From assembly GCA_018302125.1 (NCBI GenBank), contig JAGWAC010000003.1, forward strand, positions 2,206 through 66,205: 64,000 bases of DNA, given 5' to 3'. Below are positions 34,001-49,453 of this stretch, piece after piece. Positions within the stretch are counted from its first letter, which is position 1; each line of letters starts with the position of its first letter. Both the position numbers and the translations under genes were made by a program. This DNA comes from Candidatus Woesearchaeota archaeon (GTDB lineage: Archaea; Nanobdellota; Nanobdellia; SCGC-AAA011-G17; JACPIM01). The notes beneath the pieces were generated by a model. The model did no database searches and had not been told where the DNA came from. It saw only the letters and a list, made by a program, of their open reading frames with translations.

Positions 34001-34342
34001 ATGATAGAATTTTTTAAAAAAACAGAATTGAAGAAAGGATCTACTTACAATACAGAGTTCTTTCCAGATAAAGTAATTTTAGAATCATTCAAATATTTAG
34101 GTCAATCAAATAGAACTCATGTCTTTGAAGGAAAAATAGAAATTAAAACTGGAGTTCCAATAGCTGAAGGTTTTATTTTACTTGAGGATCATTGGATGAT
34201 GGAAATAGATGGCGTTATAACTTATAAACCAATTTCGTCCTTTGCAATGGAATGGCATAGAAAAGAAGATATTGAAAAGGAAGCGCCAGAAGTAAAATCA
34301 AGATTAATAAAAATATTAGCAGAAGTAGGGACCCAAGTATAA
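34001..34342 (+). CDS. hypothetical protein inserted between rpl23 and rpl2
   Basis: 113 aa ORF, stop/start abutting both flanking r-protein genes; possible cupin-like beta motifs; no known r-protein signature. Confidence 0.5.
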   Translation: MIEFFKKTELKKGSTYNTEFFPDKVILESFKYLGQSNRTHVFEGKIEIKTGVPIAEGFILLEDHWMMEIDGVITYKPISSFAMEWHRKEDIEKEAPEVKSRLIKILAEVGTQV

Positions 34343-34343
34343 A

Positions 34344-35066
34344 ATGGGAAAGAGAATAATTATCAGAAGACGTGGACGCGGAACGCCAGTTTATAGAGCC
34401 CGCTCTAATCATTTCAAGGCAGAAGTAAGATACAGGAAATTTGATCAAGTAGAAAAATCAGGAAAAGTAATTGGCAGAGTAGTTGATTTAGTAAAATGCC
34501 CTGGTCATACAGCCCCATTAGCAAAAATAAAATTTCAAAATAATGAAGATGCATACATGTTGGCTCCTTTAAATTTAAAAGTTAATGATCTAATAGAATC
34601 AGGTTCTTTGTCTTCAGTAAATAATGGAAATATTTTGCCTTTAAAACAAATTCCAGAAGGAACTTTAGTATATAATATAGAAAGTTTTCCAGGTGATGGG
34701 GGAAAATTCTGCAGAGCAGCTGGAAATTTTGCAAAAATAATTTCATCAACAAAAGATTCAATTTTAATAGAGCTTCCTTCAAAAAAACAAAGAAAATTCA
34801 TTCCAGACTGCAGGGCAACAATTGGAATTTTATCAGGGCATGGGCGTAAAGATAAACCATTTGTAAAAGCAGGAAAAAGATGGCATTATATGAGAGCAAG
34901 AGGAAAAGTTTATCCTCAAACTTCAGCAGTAGCTATGAATGCATTAAATCATCCTTATGGTTCTGGTAGAGGCAGAAAACATGCTAAGATTAAAGTAGTC
35001 TCAAGAAATGCTCCACCAGGAAGAAAAGTAGGTAAAGTAGCTGCAAGAAGAACTGGTAGAAAGTAA
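34344..35066 (+). CDS. rpl2: 50S ribosomal protein L2
   Basis: uL2 signatures (RGRGTP, HPYGSGRG). Confidence 0.95.
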   Translation: MGKRIIIRRRGRGTPVYRARSNHFKAEVRYRKFDQVEKSGKVIGRVVDLVKCPGHTAPLAKIKFQNNEDAYMLAPLNLKVNDLIESGSLSSVNNGNILPLKQIPEGTLVYNIESFPGDGGKFCRAAGNFAKIISSTKDSILIELPSKKQRKFIPDCRATIGILSGHGRKDKPFVKAGKRWHYMRARGKVYPQTSAVAMNALNHPYGSGRGRKHAKIKVVSRNAPPGRKVGKVAARRTGRK

Positions 35067-35472: not shown

Positions 35473-35913
35473 ATGGAAGAAAAAGATTTAGTAAAAGTAT
35501 CTGGATTCAATTTGCCTATTTCAACAAAGCATGCAATTGAACTTTGTTCATATATAAAAGGCAAGGAAGTCTCAAAAATAAAAGATACTTTGAATAAAGT
35601 AATTCAGGAAAAAACAGTAATCAAATTAAGAAGATTTTACCATAAAAGAGGTCATAAAAAAGGACATTTAGGTCCTGGTTTTTACCCAAAGAAAGCATCA
35701 ATGCATTTCCTTCAGTTGCTTCAGACTTTGGAAGGCAATGCAAAAAATAAGGGTCTCAACTCAGAATTATTGAAAATAGAAAAAGCAATTACAAATCAAG
35801 CCTCATTGTCTTGGCATTATAGTAGGCATAGGGGAAGGAGACAAAAAAGAACAAATGTGGAAATTTATGCATCAGAAAAATCAAAAAATAAAACTAAGGA
35901 AATTAAGAAATGA
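35473..35913 (+). CDS. rpl22: 50S ribosomal protein L22
   Basis: uL22 N-terminal pattern (GFNLPISTKHAIELC). Confidence 0.85.
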   Translation: MEEKDLVKVSGFNLPISTKHAIELCSYIKGKEVSKIKDTLNKVIQEKTVIKLRRFYHKRGHKKGHLGPGFYPKKASMHFLQLLQTLEGNAKNKGLNSELLKIEKAITNQASLSWHYSRHRGRRQKRTNVEIYASEKSKNKTKEIKK

Positions 35914-36665
35914 TAGAAAAGCAATTTGTTAATCAGAAAATAAAGGAATTCCAGATCCAGGAATACATTAAAGAAGAATTTAGCGGAACTGGATTCTCTC
36001 ATATAGATATTCAGAGAACTCCCTTGGGTGAAAAAGTAATTATTTACACAACTCGCCCAGGATTGGTTGTTGGTAAAAAAGGGGAAAACATCAGGAAATT
36101 AACAATTGTTCTTAAGAAAAAATTCAATATGGAGAATCCTCAAATTGAAATTGGTGAATTGCAAAATCCAATGCTTGATGCAAATTTTATTGCAGATAGA
36201 ATTAGTTCAACTTTAGTAAGGTTTGGCTCCAAGAGATTTAAGTCAGTGGGATACAAAACATTGCAAGACATAATCAATGCAGGTGCTTTGGGAGCAGAAA
36301 TAGTTATTTCAGGAAAAGTTCCAAGTGCAAGATCAAGAAGATGGAGATTCAAGGCAGGACACTTAAAAAAATCTGGTTATATTGCATCAGACAAAGTAAA
36401 AAAAGCAATAACTCAGGCAAAATTGAAGTCAGGAATAATCGGAATAAAAATAAGTATAATGACTCCAGATATAATATTGCCTGATAAAATTTTGGTTTTA
36501 AATAAAGAAATGGAATTAGTCGAGAAAAAACCCGAAGAAATTCCAAAAGAAACTCCAGAAAAAGAAATAAAAGAAGAGCCTAAGAAAAAAATGGTGAAAA
36601 AAACAAAAGAAAAAACTGAGGAAGAAAAAGTTCCTGAAGAAAAAATAGAAAATGAAAATAAATGA
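35910..36665 (+). CDS. rps3: 30S ribosomal protein S3 with K/E-rich C-terminal tail
   Basis: KH-domain uS3 signature (HIDIQRTPLGEKVIIYT...GKKGENI); ~45 aa lysine/glutamate tail. Confidence 0.9.
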   Translation: MIEKQFVNQKIKEFQIQEYIKEEFSGTGFSHIDIQRTPLGEKVIIYTTRPGLVVGKKGENIRKLTIVLKKKFNMENPQIEIGELQNPMLDANFIADRISSTLVRFGSKRFKSVGYKTLQDIINAGALGAEIVISGKVPSARSRRWRFKAGHLKKSGYIASDKVKKAITQAKLKSGIIGIKISIMTPDIILPDKILVLNKEMELVEKKPEEIPKETPEKEIKEEPKKKMVKKTKEKTEEEKVPEEKIENENK

Positions 36666-43750: not shown

Positions 43751-44161
43751 ATGCCGGTAAATAAAAGAAAGAAAAATTCAAGATTAAAAGGAAGCCATAC
43801 ATATGGTTGGGGTAGTAAAAAAAAGCACAGAAAAGCCGGTAATAGGGGCGGTCATGGGATGTCAGGCACTGGAAAAAGATCTGACCACAAAAAAACTATG
43901 ATTTTGAAAAAATATGGTCATGATTATTTTGGTAAAACTGGATTTAAAAGACCCCAACAAGTACTATTAAAAATAAAAACAATCAATATCGAAGATCTAA
44001 ACAAATTTAAAGAAGATAAAATAGATTTATTAAAACTAGGTTACAATAAATTATTGGGTAAAGGAAACATAAATAAAAAGGTAACTATAATAGTTCCTAA
44101 ATTTAGCGAAAGTGCAAAAGAAAAAATTGAAAAAGCAGGTGGACAAATCTTAGAACAATGA
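43751..44161 (+). CDS. rpl15: 50S ribosomal protein L15
   Basis: glycine/basic-rich uL15 N-terminus (GSHTYGWGSKKKHRKAGNRGGHG). Confidence 0.85.
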   Translation: MPVNKRKKNSRLKGSHTYGWGSKKKHRKAGNRGGHGMSGTGKRSDHKKTMILKKYGHDYFGKTGFKRPQQVLLKIKTINIEDLNKFKEDKIDLLKLGYNKLLGKGNINKKVTIIVPKFSESAKEKIEKAGGQILEQ

Positions 44162-45558
44162 GTATTCTAGACAATTTAACAAAAAAGCTTCCAGAAGTAA
44201 AAGGTCCAGAAGAAAAATACCTTTCTTTTAATACTAAATTAAAATGGACTTTAATAATCTTATCAGCATTTTACATATTAAGTGTTGTTCCTTTGTATGG
44301 TCTTGGCCAAAATGCCTTGTCGCAATTTGAATCCTTATCTATATTATTGGGAGCTAGTTTTGGCAGTATTTTATCTTTGGGTATTGGTCCAATAGTTACT
44401 GCATCCATAGTTTTGCAGTTATTAGTTGGTTCAGAAATATTAAAATTTGATACAACAACAAAAGAAGGAAGGGCAAAATTTCAGGGCGTTCAAAAAATAG
44501 CGGCAATTTTCTTTATTATTTTTGAGGCTGTTATTTATGTAATTTTAGGTGGTTTAGCTCCAGCATCAGATTTGTCTCAGTCAACATTTTTCACTATTCA
44601 ATTAGTCTTGATTTTTCAGTTATTAGTCGGAGGAATGATAGTTTTATTTATGGATGAAGTTTTGAATAAATGGGGATTTGGTTCTGGTATTTCATTGTTC
44701 ATAGCTGCAGGAGTTTCTTCACAAATTTTTGTAAGAATATTGTCGCCATTAACAAGAGCAGGAACTTTTGCATTTAGTTCAGGCGAAAGTCCAGTTGGGC
44801 AATTATGGGTATTTTTACTTTCATTAATAGGAAGAAATCCAAGAGAAGCATTCTTGGCTGCTCTGTTAATAATATTCACAATATTAATTTTCATAGTAGC
44901 AACATATGTCCAGTCTATGAAAGTTGAAATTCCTTTAAGTTTTGGAAGAATAAGGGGTCATGGAATAAGGTGGCCTTTGAAATTTATTTATACATCAAAT
45001 ATCCCTGTTATTTTAATAGCTGCTTTGTTTGCAAATATTCAGCTATGGGCAAGATTATTGGAAAGTCGGGGTTACCCTATTTTAGGAACTTTTGCAGGCA
45101 ATGTGCCAGTTTCAGGAATTGTTGCTTGGTTATTTGCTCCTAATTTGCCAGCAGAAATTTTGGGTGGTAGTTTCAGGCCAATTTTAATACTTCAATCATT
45201 AGTTTATATATCTACATTTGTAATTGGTTCTATAATATTCTCTATTTTCTGGGTTCAGACATCTGGAATGAATGCTTCTTCCCAGGCAAAGCAGATAATT
45301 AATTCAGGCTTGCAAGTACCAGGATTTAGGCGAGATCCAAGAGTTGTTGAAAGATTACTAGAAAGATATATATCTCCTCTAACTGTAATGGGGGCTATAG
45401 TAGTTGGTTTTTTGGCATCAACAGCAGACTTGTTAGGGGCTTTGTCTAGCGGTACTGGAATTCTTCTTACAGTAATGATTATATATAGATTATATGAAGA
45501 TATTAGTAAACAGCATATGGCTGACATTAATCCAGTATTCAGAAAAATGATAGAATAA
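44158..45558 (+). CDS. secY: preprotein translocase subunit SecY
   Basis: 10 TM layout, conserved TM2/plug region (GIGPIVTASIVLQLL), canonical position after rpl15. Confidence 0.9.
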   Translation: MSILDNLTKKLPEVKGPEEKYLSFNTKLKWTLIILSAFYILSVVPLYGLGQNALSQFESLSILLGASFGSILSLGIGPIVTASIVLQLLVGSEILKFDTTTKEGRAKFQGVQKIAAIFFIIFEAVIYVILGGLAPASDLSQSTFFTIQLVLIFQLLVGGMIVLFMDEVLNKWGFGSGISLFIAAGVSSQIFVRILSPLTRAGTFAFSSGESPVGQLWVFLLSLIGRNPREAFLAALLIIFTILIFIVATYVQSMKVEIPLSFGRIRGHGIRWPLKFIYTSNIPVILIAALFANIQLWARLLESRGYPILGTFAGNVPVSGIVAWLFAPNLPAEILGGSFRPILILQSLVYISTFVIGSIIFSIFWVQTSGMNASSQAKQIINSGLQVPGFRRDPRVVERLLERYISPLTVMGAIVVGFLASTADLLGALSSGTGILLTVMIIYRLYEDISKQHMADINPVFRKMIE

Positions 45559-45559
45559 A

Positions 45560-46012
45560 ATGGCATTAGAAACTTTTTTTGATATAATATTTGGTCCTGT
45601 AATAGCTTTAGGTAATCCTTGGAATATTATTATAATTTCTTTTTTCTTGACATTAATAGTTAATTTAGCTATGAAATTCTTTACTAATCAAAAAATCATG
45701 AAATCTTTAAAAGAAGACACTGAATATTTTAAAAAAGAAATGCAAAAGTTTAAAAATGACCCGCAAAAACTAATAGAAATACAAAAGAAATCAATGGAAA
45801 CAAGCTTAAAATATTTGAAGCATTCGCTTCCAGCAACATTAGTAACCTTGCTTCCCTTGTTGTTAATTTTTGGATGGTTAAGACAAACCTTCCCATCTGA
45901 ACAGATATTATTAATCCTGCCTTTTGGCATTAATTTAGGATGGCTTGGTTCCTACATATTGTTTTCAATTATATTTAGTATAATTTTAAGAAAAATATTA
46001 AAGATACACTAA
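45560..46012 (+). CDS. DUF106/EMC3-TMCO1-like membrane protein (archaeal YidC/Oxa1-superfamily insertase candidate)
   Basis: 3-TM protein with coiled-coil loop rich in K/E/Q; canonical position downstream of secY in archaea. Confidence 0.55.
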   Translation: MALETFFDIIFGPVIALGNPWNIIIISFFLTLIVNLAMKFFTNQKIMKSLKEDTEYFKKEMQKFKNDPQKLIEIQKKSMETSLKYLKHSLPATLVTLLPLLLIFGWLRQTFPSEQILLILPFGINLGWLGSYILFSIIFSIILRKILKIH

Positions 46013-46013
46013 A

Positions 46014-46688
46014 ATGCCAATACAACCACAAGCAACAAGAAGTTTAAGAAGAATTCAAGTAAGAACTCCTGGCAACAGGTTAGTTACTCATTTTGAAAAG
46101 AAAAAACCAACAATAGCTAAATGTGGAAATTGTGGTCAAGAATTAAAAGGTATTCCTAGAGAAAGACCGACAGCTTTCAGAAATTTGCCTTATTCTCAAA
46201 AAACAGTTTCTAGGCCTTTTGGCGGAAATCTATGTTCAAAATGTTCAAGAGAAAAAATAATTGAAAAATTCAAGGATATTAAAGAATTCCCCTTGGAAAT
46301 TGGCCAGGTTTGTGTAAAAACAGCAGGAAAAGAAGCAGGTTCTGTATGTGTAATAGTGGAGAAATTAGATGAGAATTTTGTTTTAATTGATGGCCAGGTA
46401 AAAAGAAGAAAATGTAATGTCTTGCACTTAAAAACATTGGATAAAAAACTGGAAATTAAAAAAAATGAGTCTTCTGAAACTATAAAAAGGGAATTAAAAG
46501 CATTAGGTTTTGAAATAAAAGAAGGAAGAAAGAAAGAAAAGAAAGCTCTTCCTGAGAAAAAAGAAATTAAAAAGGAAGAAAAAGTCGCTGAGAAAAAAGA
46601 GGCTAAAAAAGAGCCTAAGAAAACTGAAAAATCTGAAATTAAAAAAAAGAAAGCTGAAAAACCAAAATCTAAAGGAGTCAAGAAATAG
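46014..46688 (+). CDS. fused ribosomal proteins L34e (N-terminal) and L14e (KOW, middle) with K/E-rich tail
   Basis: N-term RRIQVRTPGNRLVTHFEKKKP...CGNCGQEL...GGNLCSKC (eL34); residues ~95-150 GQVCVKTAGKEAGSVCVIVEKLDENFVLIDG (eL14 KOW); single continuous ORF. Confidence 0.7.
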   Translation: MPIQPQATRSLRRIQVRTPGNRLVTHFEKKKPTIAKCGNCGQELKGIPRERPTAFRNLPYSQKTVSRPFGGNLCSKCSREKIIEKFKDIKEFPLEIGQVCVKTAGKEAGSVCVIVEKLDENFVLIDGQVKRRKCNVLHLKTLDKKLEIKKNESSETIKRELKALGFEIKEGRKKEKKALPEKKEIKKEEKVAEKKEAKKEPKKTEKSEIKKKKAEKPKSKGVKK

Positions 46689-47141: not shown

Positions 47142-47699
47142 TTAAAATTCCTTTCTTCTTTTCAAATACTCAACTAATTCTTTTGAAATCAAAGGTTTAT
47201 TTTTTATTAGTAAATATCTATAAGGTAAAATAACAGAGTCATATTTTCCTAATTGAATCTCTATTTTTTCCTTGAATTTTAAATCTTTTAACTTCTTTCC
47301 TTTTAAAATTTCTTTTACAACAGCAACCGCATTATCAGTGCTAAATTGTTTTTTTCCAATGTTTCTAGCTGTGAAGTTTAGTTTTTTAGTTAATTCTTTT
47401 TTCGTTCTTTTTTTCGGAGGATAATCCCCCAAAATCCCGCCAAAAATAAAATATTTAAATTTTTTAGCCTCTTCCGGACTTAAAGTTTTCTTTGCATCTG
47501 GATCTAATATACAGGCATTTTTTAAATTTAATTCAGAAATAGATTTGCTATTTCTTTTGCCGTATTTCCCTAATTGCTTGTTTTTAATATTAGTAAATAA
47601 CAGTTTCCCTTTTCCAACAATTTTAGAAATATGTTTATATTCAATTAAGCACCATTTCCATAATTTACAATCTAAATGTTCTATAATAAAAGTAGCCAT
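47142..47699 (-). CDS. SPOUT-class methyltransferase of the SFM1/DUF431 family
   Basis: Clear similarity to yeast Sfm1 blocks: IIEH...W.LIEY.HI, LDP.A...L.PEEAKKF.YF.FGGILGD.PP, RN.G.KQ.STD.A. Confidence 0.65.
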   Translation of the reverse strand: MATFIIEHLDCKLWKWCLIEYKHISKIVGKGKLLFTNIKNKQLGKYGKRNSKSISELNLKNACILDPDAKKTLSPEEAKKFKYFIFGGILGDYPPKKRTKKELTKKLNFTARNIGKKQFSTDNAVAVVKEILKGKKLKDLKFKEKIEIQLGKYDSVILPYRYLLIKNKPLISKELVEYLKRRKEF

Positions 47700-48437: not shown

Positions 48438-48947
48438 ATGTTATACGAGCCAGCTGAAGATTCTTTTTTGCTCCAAAAACAAGTAAGAAAATATGCTAAA
48501 GGTAAAGTTCTTGATTTGGGTGCAGGAACTGGTATTCAGGCCTTAGCAGCATTAAAAAATACAAAAGATGTTCTTGCAGCAGATATAAATCCCAAAGCAG
48601 TAAAACATTGCAAAAAATTGGGCATTAACGTCATTAAATCTAATCTGTTTAGCAATATAAAAAGCAAATTTGATTTAATCATATTTAATCCCCCATATCT
48701 TCCAGATGACAATTTAAATCTAGAAGACGATAGAAACTATATTGGCGGAGAACAAGGAAATGAAATTTTGGAAAGATTCTTTTCTCAAGCGAAAAAACAT
48801 CTTAATAAAAATGGAAAAATATTAATTGTCTTCAGTTCATTAACTTCAGATATAAATAAAATAATAAAAAAACACAAATTCAAATTTAAGAAATTAAGTG
48901 AACAAAAATTCTTTTTTGAGAAATTATTTGTTTATTTAATATATTAA
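48438..48947 (+). CDS. HemK/Mtq2-like N5-glutamine methyltransferase
   Basis: VLDLGAGTG motif I and NPPY motif IV. Confidence 0.7.
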   Translation: MLYEPAEDSFLLQKQVRKYAKGKVLDLGAGTGIQALAALKNTKDVLAADINPKAVKHCKKLGINVIKSNLFSNIKSKFDLIIFNPPYLPDDNLNLEDDRNYIGGEQGNEILERFFSQAKKHLNKNGKILIVFSSLTSDINKIIKKHKFKFKKLSEQKFFFEKLFVYLIY

Positions 48948-49018: not shown

Positions 49019-49453
49019 TTATTTTAATTTTTTCTTTTCCTTTTTTGCCAGTTCTTTCTCAACATCCTTTCTAACCACGTCATCTAGTTTCTCTGTAACA
49101 GGTATATTGTTTGGATCTAAAACCCTTGCTCCAATAGCTCTTCCGCTTACTTTCTTTTCAAAAAGCTCAAGCCTTCCTCTTATATCTTCTTGTTCTCTTC
49201 TTATAATCTCTCCCTCAGCTCTTGAAGCTAATAAAGTACCAGTATATTCTGCTACGCTAAATCCCCCATAAACAGCCCCGCCTAAAAGAACCCTCTTAAT
49301 ATCTGGATTTTCCTGAATTATATGATAAACACCATACATAAGAGAAATATATTGTCCTAATTTACCAAGTAAATGTAACCCTAATCCAGTCATCCTTAAA
49401 TCAGCAGGTTCAATTGGTTTTTTCTTTCTCAGATATTTGTCCAGCTCAACCAT
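49019..49453 (-). CDS. hypothetical protein
   Basis: 144 aa ORF with coding-like composition, Gly-rich hydrophobic segment (LLGGAVYGGFSVAEY) and KE-rich tail. Confidence 0.35.
   Translation of the reverse strand: MVELDKYLRKKKPIEPADLRMTGLGLHLLGKLGQYISLMYGVYHIIQENPDIKRVLLGGAVYGGFSVAEYTGTLLASRAEGEIIRREQEDIRGRLELFEKKVSGRAIGARVLDPNNIPVTEKLDDVVRKDVEKELAKKEKKKLK

What the first reader, a model, noticed from the sequence alone, without database searches (positions are those of the whole stretch)
47142..47699. Archaeal homolog of the eukaryotic ribosomal-protein arginine methyltransferase Sfm1 (SPOUT/DUF431) inside the r-protein supercluster
The protein aligns block-for-block with yeast Sfm1, which methylates an arginine of Rps3. 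Matching blocks are IIEH..W.LIEY, LDP.A..L.PEEAKKF.YFIFGGILGDYPP and RN.G.KQ.STD.A. Its location between pfdA and nadK, within a stretch otherwise devoted to ribosome and translation genes, fits a role in modifying a ribosomal component in this archaeon.
Basis: partly seen in the sequence, partly recalled or inferred. Interest (0 to 1): 0.5.

Follow-up and report, generated by a model that had tools for sequence, protein, structure and literature searches.

The report
Archaeal Sfm1-family SPOUT methyltransferase gene
This gene in a tiny groundwater (DPANN) archaeon is a clear relative of yeast Sfm1, an enzyme that methylates an arginine of ribosomal protein uS3; databases already recognise archaeal members of the family, but nobody has tested what they do.

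Summary
Window 47142-47699 (minus strand) is a 185-aa ORF under strong purifying selection (dN/dS 0.056). It matches Pfam PF04252 (SFM1-like) over its full length (E = 1.6e-52). A confident AlphaFold model (pLDDT 90.9) superposes on yeast Sfm1 crystal structures (TM 0.86); the next-best fold, Trm10, reaches about 0.5.

The four residues essential in yeast are kept: E9/W15/E19/F180 become D10/W16/E20/Y160, and they are nearly invariant in 126 diverse relatives. The yeast target, uS3 Arg146, is conserved as Arg141 in the uS3 gene of this window and in other archaeal uS3 proteins.

The protein is very basic (pI 9.95; yeast 5.1). This mostly reflects a lysine-rich proteome (window median pI 9.5), because the extra lysines are not positionally conserved.

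The context argument is weaker than stated. The gene is on the opposite strand to its neighbours, and only 1 of 80 related genomes shares the arrangement. A different DPANN clade, however, couples the gene to the uL13-uS9-RpoN operon.

Archaeal members have been known since 2007 and are already annotated. This is an ordinary new member of a known family; its substrate in archaea is inferred, not shown.

The parts
47142..47699 (-). Sfm1-like SPOUT methyltransferase gene (185 aa plus stop codon)
   Evidence: ORF. PF04252 E = 1.6e-52, full length. Yeast Sfm1 PDB E about 3e-28. AF2 model pLDDT 90.9. Foldseek TM 0.86 to 5h5f/5h5e. dN/dS 0.056 against L017.
47637..47690 (-). N-terminal arginine-pocket motif, residues 4-21 (FIIEHLDCKLWKWCLIEY). 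It carries D10, W16 and E20, the equivalents of yeast E9, W15 and E19.
   Evidence: Pairwise mapping to yeast Sfm1. Family-wide conservation: W 122/126, E 124/126, E/D 118/126. The yeast residues are essential by mutagenesis (PMC4860837).
47499..47507 (-). Conserved block 1, residues 65-67 (LDP); assigned to cofactor-binding loop L1 of the knot region by inference
   Evidence: L 125/126, D 123/126, P 103/126. The assignment to loop L1 is my inference from the alignment to yeast Sfm1 and the L1-L3 description in PMC4860837; the loop residues were not read from the paper.
47415..47444 (-). Conserved block 2, residues 86-95 (FGGILGDYPP), the most conserved motif of the family; assigned to cofactor-binding loop L2 by inference. 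D92 is the equivalent of yeast D110.
   Evidence: G87 125/126, G88 126/126, I89 122/126, G91 126/126, D92 105/126. This motif served as the genome-scan pattern [IV][FI]GGILGDxP.
47328..47366 (-). Conserved block 3, residues 112-124 (RNIGKKQFSTDNA); assigned to cofactor-binding loop L3 by inference
   Evidence: R112 111/126, G115 120/126, Q118 120/126, D122 116/126, A124 114/126.
47145..47276 (-). C-terminal domain, residues 142-185: two long beta-strands and a helix. It carries Y160 (yeast F180) and the acidic residues E147 and D154 (yeast E167 and E174).
   Evidence: Secondary structure of the model. Mapping. Position 160 is Y 72 / F 50 of 126. The CTD is required for uS3 binding in yeast (PMC4860837).
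47700..47734 (.). 35-bp divergent intergenic region shared with nadK. On the minus strand it contains TTTATAAAA (47729-47721), about 22-30 nt upstream of the ATG, and no Shine-Dalgarno-like motif. Possible archaeal TATA box for a leaderless mRNA.
   Evidence: Read directly from the sequence. Suggestive only: the region is very AT-rich, and the sigma-70 scan is not applicable to archaea (8 sites found, 9.7 expected).
35910..36665 (+). uS3 gene, the predicted substrate. Codon 36330-36332 encodes Arg141, the equivalent of yeast Rps3 Arg146, in the motif SGKVPSAR(141)SRRWRF.
   Evidence: ORF. uS3 PDB hits at E = 4.8e-48. R146 maps to R141. The same Arg is seen in Thermococcus, M. jannaschii and human uS3. 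E. coli has Glu at this position (E. coli sequence recalled from memory; consistent with PMC7866298).

Best explanation
The gene encodes an orthologue of yeast Sfm1: a small, probably monomeric SAM-dependent methyltransferase made of a knotted SPOUT domain (residues 1 to about 140) and a short C-terminal domain (residues 142-185).

Proposed mechanism. SAM binds in the knot formed by the three conserved blocks LDP, GGILGD and RN.G..Q.STD. The guanidinium group of a substrate arginine is held by two carboxylates (D10, E20), a tryptophan (W16) and an aromatic residue from the C-terminal domain (Y160), and receives a methyl group on a terminal nitrogen. The most likely substrate is free, not-yet-assembled ribosomal protein uS3, at Arg141. 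This residue is the equivalent of yeast Arg146, which in the assembled small subunit stacks on rRNA next to the A-site codon.

What is shown here: family membership, fold, conservation of the catalytic and cofactor motifs, conservation of the target arginine, and purifying selection. What is inferred: the enzymatic activity, the identity of the substrate, and the timing before assembly.

Archaea have no nucleus. If the substrate is right, the modification must therefore serve the ribosome itself (assembly, rRNA contact or decoding) and not nucleolar import.
For: 1. PF04252 at 178 bits over the full length; yeast Sfm1 structures are the best PDB sequence hits at E about 3e-28.
2. [quoted passage not shown] The next fold, Trm10, reaches only TM about 0.5.
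3. All four residues whose alanine mutants abolish yeast activity (E9, W15, E19, F180; PMC4860837) are kept as D10/W16/E20/Y160. Asp at the first position also occurs in some yeasts. In 126 diverse members they are W 122, E 124, E/D 118 and Y/F 122.
4. The target Arg is conserved in the window's uS3 (R141) and in uS3 from Thermococcus, Methanocaldococcus and human ribosome structures.
5. Acidic positions E7, D/E10, E20, D66, E77, D92 and D122 are conserved in both the acidic and the basic subgroups. Two of the four acidic residues of patch P3 on the C-terminal domain are kept (E147, D154).
6. dN/dS is 0.056 against an 86%-identical orthologue, and 357 species genomes carry a relative.
7. Context: the gene sits next to the r-protein cluster here and in L017. 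In six other DPANN species it follows RpoN at the end of the eL18-uL13-uS9-RpoN operon, in five of them with overlapping or abutting stop and start codons.
Against: 1. No archaeal member has been tested experimentally. None was found in the held literature, so the substrate is extrapolated from a single characterised enzyme at about 32% identity.
2. The protein is strongly basic (pI 9.95, net +26, +0.14 per residue, which is r-protein-like). Yeast Sfm1 is acidic (pI about 5.1), and its acidic surface was the published argument for a protein and not an RNA substrate.
3. Yeast patch residues E10, E177 and D203 are not acidic here: C11, I157 and roughly R182 (the last read by eye from the pairwise alignment).
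4. Gene neighbourhood is not conserved overall: 105 Pfam families among 149 flanking ORFs. In this window the gene is antisense to the r-protein genes.
Confidence: 0.6

Rival explanations
1. It is an RNA (tRNA or rRNA) methyltransferase, like nearly all other SPOUT enzymes and its closest paralogue Trm10. In this view the yeast protein-substrate activity is a eukaryotic, or fungal, novelty.
For: SPOUT enzymes are overwhelmingly RNA methyltransferases, and Sfm1 is the only known exception (PMC9508554). COG2428 is the sister family of Trm10/COG2419 (PMC1829167), and weak Trm10 hits are seen. The protein is very basic, with pI 9.95 and a charge density like that of r-proteins. The database name hedges: 'Rps3 or RNA methylase'.
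Against: The PRMT-like arginine pocket (two carboxylates, Trp and an aromatic residue) is nearly invariant across the whole family, including archaeal members. Yeast Sfm1 has no activity on total RNA. The basic character tracks the proteome, since the window median pI is 9.5. It is also not positional: only one column (K116) is consistently positive in basic members and not in acidic ones, so there is no conserved basic patch. Archaeal relatives such as the Thermococcus proteins are strongly acidic (pI about 4.5, net -26) and share the same active-site positions that are near-invariant in the family. The C-terminal domain that clashes with the dimer mode RNA-binding SPOUT enzymes use in yeast is retained.
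Confidence: 0.12
2. It is a protein arginine methyltransferase, but its archaeal substrate is a protein other than uS3, or several basic proteins.
For: The active site supports arginine methylation chemistry, but nothing here identifies the substrate directly. Yeast Sfm1 is reported to have a second, unidentified target (PMC7866298). Only part of the yeast uS3-binding acidic patch is kept. The gene neighbourhood is variable.
Against: The yeast target Arg and its motif, SGK(L/V)xxxR(A/S)(K/R), are conserved in archaeal uS3. There are two independent associations with ribosomal gene clusters, one of them with start/stop overlap. Yeast Sfm1 also methylates human uS3, which shows that substrate recognition tolerates large sequence divergence.
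Confidence: 0.2
3. It is a decayed or non-catalytic SPOUT-fold protein, for example a binding protein or chaperone for uS3 without methyltransferase activity.
For: No direct evidence of activity exists. The first carboxylate is Asp and not Glu, and the aromatic residue is Tyr and not Phe.
Against: The putative cofactor-binding blocks are the most conserved parts of the protein, with GGILG essentially invariant. D and Y are common family variants: D in 25/126 and Y in 72/126. dN/dS is 0.056.
Confidence: 0.04

Closest known systems
Saccharomyces cerevisiae Sfm1 (Yor021c; PDB 5C74, 5C77, 5H5D-F), SPOUT protein arginine methyltransferase of uS3 Arg146
   Same: Same Pfam family (PF04252). Same fold, SPOUT domain plus C-terminal domain, at TM 0.86. 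Same conserved cofactor-region motifs. Same arginine-pocket residues (E/D, W, E, aromatic). The target arginine is present in the cognate uS3.
   Different: About 32% identity. It is 185 aa, against 213 aa for full-length yeast Sfm1 (PMC4860837), because the loops between residues about 38 and 75 of the yeast protein are shorter. It is strongly basic (pI 9.95 against about 5.1). Three of the acidic surface residues mapped in yeast are not acidic here. There is no nucleus in the host, so the proposed nucleolar-import role cannot apply. The activity is untested.
Trm10 / TRMT10 (COG2419), monomeric SPOUT tRNA m1G9/m1A9 methyltransferase
   Same: It is the sister family within SPOUT. Both are described as monomeric exceptions (PMC1829167, PMC9508554), and there is weak sequence and fold similarity.
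   Different: NCBIfam Trm10 models score 19-25 bits against cut-offs of 330-550. TM is only about 0.5. Trm10 acts on tRNA and lacks the PRMT-like pocket, and Tkaczuk et al. found no shared strongly conserved residues between the two COGs.
Canonical Rossmann-fold PRMTs (PRMT1/3/5/7)
   Same: They probably carry out the same chemistry with a convergent active site: two acidic residues, a Trp and an aromatic residue around the substrate arginine, in a mirror-image arrangement according to PMC4860837.
   Different: The fold is unrelated (class I Rossmann against the knotted SPOUT fold), and the PRMTs are dimeric. No homology was detected in any search here.
Uncharacterised archaeal COG2428 proteins (Thermococcus spp., Thermogladius, Thermoplasmatales and Methanomethylicota MAGs)
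   Same: Same family, with near-invariant conservation of the catalytic positions across the family alignment. They are already annotated as 'Rps3 or RNA methylase involved in ribosome biogenesis, SPOUT family'.
   Different: The Thermococcus proteins are acidic (pI about 4.5), somewhat longer (about 211 aa), and 33-40% identical to the window protein. They too are untested.

Membership tests
SFM1-like (Pfam PF04252 / DUF431 / COG2428) | Scores above the curated Pfam gathering threshold over the whole domain | tested here: met
   178.4 bits against a cut-off of 27, E = 1.6e-52, residues 3-182 on profile positions 1-197 of 201.
SFM1-like (Pfam PF04252 / DUF431 / COG2428) | SPOUT alpha/beta fold followed by a small C-terminal beta-rich domain | tested here: met
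   AF2 model pLDDT 90.9. Foldseek TM 0.86, rmsd 2.2-2.6 A, about 200 aligned columns to 5h5e/5h5f.
SFM1-like (Pfam PF04252 / DUF431 / COG2428) | Deep trefoil knot in the cofactor-binding half | tested here: inconclusive
   The knot is implied by the sequential superposition on knotted crystal structures at 2.2-2.6 A.
SFM1-like (Pfam PF04252 / DUF431 / COG2428) | Conserved cofactor-region motifs (LDP; GGILGD; RN.G..Q.STD) | tested here: met
   All are present at residues 65-67, 87-92 and 112-122, and all are near-invariant in 126 members. Their assignment to loops L1-L3 is my inference.
SFM1-like (Pfam PF04252 / DUF431 / COG2428) | Arginine-binding pocket: Glu9, Trp15, Glu19 and Phe180 (yeast numbering), each essential by mutagenesis | tested here: met
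   D10, W16, E20 and Y160. The E-to-D and F-to-Y changes are common natural variants.
SFM1-like (Pfam PF04252 / DUF431 / COG2428) | Negatively charged surface around the active site (patches P1, P2 and P3) | tested here: inconclusive
   P1 is kept (D10, E20). In P2, D92 is kept and E10 becomes C11. In P3, E147 and D154 are kept, E177 becomes I157 and D203 becomes roughly R182. Overall pI is 9.95. The electrostatic surface was not computed.
SFM1-like (Pfam PF04252 / DUF431 / COG2428) | Methylates Arg146-equivalent of uS3 and does not methylate RNA | not testable with these tools
   Only the precondition could be checked: the target Arg is conserved as R141 in the window's uS3.
SFM1-like (Pfam PF04252 / DUF431 / COG2428) | Functions as a monomer | not testable with these tools
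   The C-terminal domain that blocks the SPOUT dimer interface in yeast is present, but the oligomeric state cannot be determined here.
Trm10 tRNA m1G9/m1A9 methyltransferase | Scores above the NCBIfam equivalog cut-off, with a fold match at family level | tested here: not met
   24.6 and 19.1 bits against cut-offs of 330 and 550. TM about 0.5.

The most novel reading that the evidence does not exclude
Archaeal Sfm1-family proteins, this one included, really do N-methylate the conserved uS3 arginine (Arg141 here) that lines the decoding centre. As far as the literature I could search shows, that would be the first protein arginine N-methyltransferase demonstrated in Archaea. It would also show that this ribosomal modification predates eukaryotes and has a ribosome-intrinsic role, not one in nucleolar import.
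Probability: 0.55. Interest if true: 0.45.

Novelty: new member of a known kind. Interest (0 to 1): 0.25.

Why it matters
Yeast Sfm1 is still the only SPOUT-fold enzyme known to act on a protein. Its product, methyl-Arg146 of uS3, has been linked to nucleolar import and to tuning of the 'CAR' surface that touches the incoming codon.

Three findings here apply across Archaea from several phyla, including genome-reduced DPANN lineages that have shed many other genes: the same pocket residues are kept, the same target arginine is kept, and in one clade the gene is operon-coupled to r-protein genes. This suggests the modification is ancient and serves the ribosome itself.

It gives a simple, testable prediction: a +14 Da shift on the SGK(L/V)xxxR peptide of archaeal uS3. 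The test is best done in a tractable Thermococcus species, not in this uncultured organism. Beyond that, this is a routine annotation. The family, its archaeal members and the inferred function are already in Pfam, COG and IMG.

Tried and rejected
1. A genome scan with a 49-sequence diverse alignment failed because no stretch was conserved enough. It was repeated with a 23-sequence alignment, but only the 80 best loci were returned, all DPANN, so neighbourhoods in Thermococcales or TACK archaea could not be examined.

2. I considered the high pI as evidence for an RNA substrate and rejected it as decisive. The window's proteome median pI is 9.5, the extra positive charges are not positionally conserved, and acidic archaeal relatives belong to the same family with the same near-invariant pocket positions.

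4. The sigma-70 promoter and terminator scan is uninformative for an archaeon: 8 sites against 9.7 expected, and no terminators.

5. Young et al. 2012 (PMC3383884) and Clarke 2018 (PMC6036201) are not held, so any remarks they make about archaeal homologues could not be checked.

6. Literature searches for COG2428, DUF431, Sfm1 with archaea, and archaeal methyl-arginine in r-proteins found no experimental work on an archaeal member.

7. I did not attempt a complex prediction of the enzyme with uS3.

Full report
**1. The observation**

Window 47142-47699 holds a 185-aa ORF on the minus strand with an ATG start. There are only trivial slips in the dot spacing.

The ORF is a real, constrained gene:
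- A 99%-identical protein occurs on at least seven metagenome contigs, and the five read here have identical gene order.
- 357 species-level genomes in the reference collection encode a relative.
- Comparison with the 86%-identical orthologue in L017 gives dN/dS = 0.056.

**2. The organism**

The window has about 29% G+C and carries an archaeal-type ribosomal gene cluster (eS4, eL32, eL19, eL34, SUI1, RNase P p29, SecY, prefoldin alpha). All close relatives that carry a name are DPANN archaea (Nanoarchaeota, Woesearchaeota, Pacearchaeota), largely from groundwater and sediment metagenomes. 'Archaeal' is therefore correct.

**3. Family and fold**

- Pfam assigns the protein to PF04252 (SFM1-like, formerly DUF431) at E = 1.6e-52 and 178 bits (cut-off 27), end to end.
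- NCBIfam has no model for the family and returns only far-sub-threshold Trm10 hits.
- Against PDB sequences the best matches are the yeast Sfm1 entries (E about 3e-28, residues 3-181). Archaeal Trm10 follows at E about 0.01.
- An AlphaFold2 model built on 30 relatives is confident (pLDDT 90.9, pTM 0.88).
- Its top Foldseek hits are the yeast Sfm1 crystal structures (TM 0.86, rmsd 2.2-2.6 A, about 200 aligned columns, so both the SPOUT domain and the C-terminal domain are covered). Trm10 follows at TM about 0.5.

I could not run an explicit knot calculation because the coordinates are not exposed. A sequential superposition at about 2.5 A on a knotted structure implies the same threading, and I mark that step as inferred.

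**4. Active site**

Lv et al. (PMC4860837) showed that the E9A, W15A, E19A and F180A mutants of yeast Sfm1 are inactive. These residues form a PRMT-like arginine pocket.

| Yeast residue | Window residue | Conservation in 126 diverse full-length members |
|---|---|---|
| Glu9 | Asp10 | E/D 118 |
| Trp15 | Trp16 | W 122 |
| Glu19 | Glu20 | E 124 |
| Phe180 | Tyr160 | Y/F 122 |

Asp at the first position also occurs in some yeasts. The members came from an exhaustive search that found 568 clusters at 50% identity. The three conserved blocks LDP, GGILGD and RN.G..Q.STD are the most conserved parts of the protein. The whole family, archaeal members included, therefore keeps the machinery for arginine methylation.

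**5. The presumed substrate**

The window encodes uS3 at 35910-36665. I first checked my remembered yeast Rps3 sequence against the PDB yeast uS3 chain: it aligns 1-240 to 1-240 at 510 bits. Yeast Arg146 then aligns with Arg141 of the window's uS3, in SGKVPSAR(141)SRRWRF.

The same arginine is present in uS3 from Thermococcus and Methanocaldococcus ribosome structures and in human uS3, within the motif SGK(L/V)xxxR(A/S)(K/R). E. coli has Glu there (the E. coli sequence is from memory). This fits the statement that R146 is conserved in eukaryotes 'but not prokaryotes' (PMC7866298), which evidently holds for bacteria and not for archaea. So the precondition for the yeast reaction is met.

**6. 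The one real difference: charge**

The protein has pI 9.95 and net charge +26. Yeast Sfm1 has pI about 5.1, and its acidic surface was the published argument for a protein and not an RNA substrate. I tested whether this points to RNA.

- The window's 73 ORFs have a median pI of 9.5, so a basic pI is the norm here. This protein's charge density (+0.14 per residue) is nevertheless r-protein-like and well above the window median of +0.05.
- The family is bimodal: 67 members have pI below 7 and 51 have pI of 8.5 or above. The acidic ones include archaeal proteins such as those of Thermococcus (pI about 4.5).
- Only one alignment column (K116) is consistently positive in basic members but not in acidic ones. 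Seven acidic columns (E7, D/E10, E20, D66, E77, D92, D122) are conserved in both groups.
- Of the mapped yeast acidic patch residues, D110, E167 and E174 are kept (D92, E147, D154). E10, E177 and D203 are not (D203 mapped by eye from the alignment).

I conclude that the basic character is mainly compositional and does not indicate a conserved RNA-binding surface. An RNA substrate is not excluded, and I give it about 0.12.

**7. Genomic context**

The gene is antisense to everything around it. Its stop codon abuts that of pfdA tail to tail, and its start is 35 bp from the divergent nadK start. It therefore has its own transcription unit. The intergenic region has a TATA-like TTTATAAAA about 26 nt upstream of the ATG and no Shine-Dalgarno motif, which is compatible with a leaderless mRNA but weak evidence in such AT-rich DNA.

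Among 80 related DPANN loci, only L017 (86% identity) shares the pfdA / nadK / HemK2 / r-protein neighbourhood. The immediate neighbours elsewhere span 105 Pfam families among 149 ORFs.

One clade of six species (L034, L045, L049, L051, L053, L070; 67-87% identical to one another, about 55% to the window) tells a different story. There the gene lies directly after RpoN at the end of the eL18-uL13-uS9-RpoN operon. In five of the six, the RpoN stop overlaps or abuts the start codon (TAATG, TGATG, TAAATG). Three to seven loci have aIF2-gamma next door.

The association with ribosomal genes is therefore recurrent but lineage-specific. It adds modest support and is not a conserved operon.

**8. What is known**

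- COG2428/DUF431 was placed in the SPOUT superfamily, and described as present in Archaea, fungi and Plasmodium and as the paralogue of Trm10, in 2007 (PMC1829167).
- Sfm1 was later shown to methylate uS3 Arg146 (PMC4860837, PMC9508554).
- Relatives of the window protein already carry PF04252 in the protein database and names such as 'SAM-dependent methyltransferase' or 'ribosome biogenesis SPOUT family RNA methylase Rps3'.
- Named archaeal members come from DPANN lineages, Thermococcus, Thermogladius, and Thermoplasmatales and Methanomethylicota MAGs.
- I found no experimental study of any archaeal member. The 2022 SPOUT review lists Sfm1 as eukaryotic only.

**9. Verdict**

The most likely function (confidence about 0.6) is SAM-dependent N-methylation of Arg141 of free uS3 before its assembly into the small subunit.

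The rivals are a different protein substrate (about 0.2), an RNA substrate (about 0.12) and a non-catalytic protein (about 0.04).

This is a new member of a known kind: a routine, already-annotatable family member. Its only real interest is that the archaeal function is still untested. If confirmed, it would establish protein arginine methylation of the ribosome in Archaea and rule out nucleolar import as the ancestral role of the modification.

Noticed in passing
window 46014-46688 (+): The eL34 gene (PF01199, residues 7-86) is fused to a C-terminal half that contains a KOW motif (E = 4.5e-4, below the Pfam cut-off) and a long Lys-rich tail. It may be an eL34-eL14 fusion. The same 224-aa product is called in L001-L004, and a match is present in L017.
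   Followed up: partly
window 48438-48947 (+): A HemK2/MTQ2-type protein glutamine methyltransferase (NCBIfam NF011529, 172 bits against a cut-off of 162) lies 0.7 kb from the Sfm1-like gene, separated only by nadK. Two translation-related protein methyltransferases therefore sit side by side in this lineage.
   Followed up: partly
window 34001-34342 (+): A 113-aa acidic ORF (pI 5.65) with no Pfam hit is inserted in the S10-type r-protein operon immediately upstream of uL2 (34344-35066), on the same strand.
   Followed up: partly
window 49019-49453 (-): A 144-aa ORF with no Pfam or NCBIfam hit lies antisense between HemK2 and uL1. It is conserved in position in L001-L005 and L017.
   Followed up: partly
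window 44158-46012 (+): SecY is followed directly by an EMC3/TMCO1-like (DUF106-type) membrane protein and then by eL34. The adk and cmk genes, which from my own knowledge usually lie in this part of archaeal spc clusters, are absent. This fits DPANN genome reduction.
   Followed up: no
window 35910-36665 (+), residues about 200-251: uS3 carries a C-terminal extension of about 50 residues rich in Lys and Glu, which the roughly 210-aa Pyrococcus and Thermococcus uS3 chains in the PDB lack.
   Followed up: no
L034, L045, L049, L051, L053, L070 (for example L045:7242-7993): In a separate DPANN clade the Sfm1-like gene follows RpoN at the end of the eL18-uL13-uS9-RpoN operon. In five of the six loci the stop and start codons overlap or abut (TAATG, TGATG); in L034 the gap is about 108 nt.
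   Followed up: yes
L006, L016, L023, L034, L058, L068, L070, L085 (record titles): Several MAGs labelled 'uncultured Methanosarcinales archaeon' carry Sfm1-like genes 54-66% identical to this DPANN protein. Their labels look like taxonomic mis-assignments of DPANN bins.
   Followed up: no
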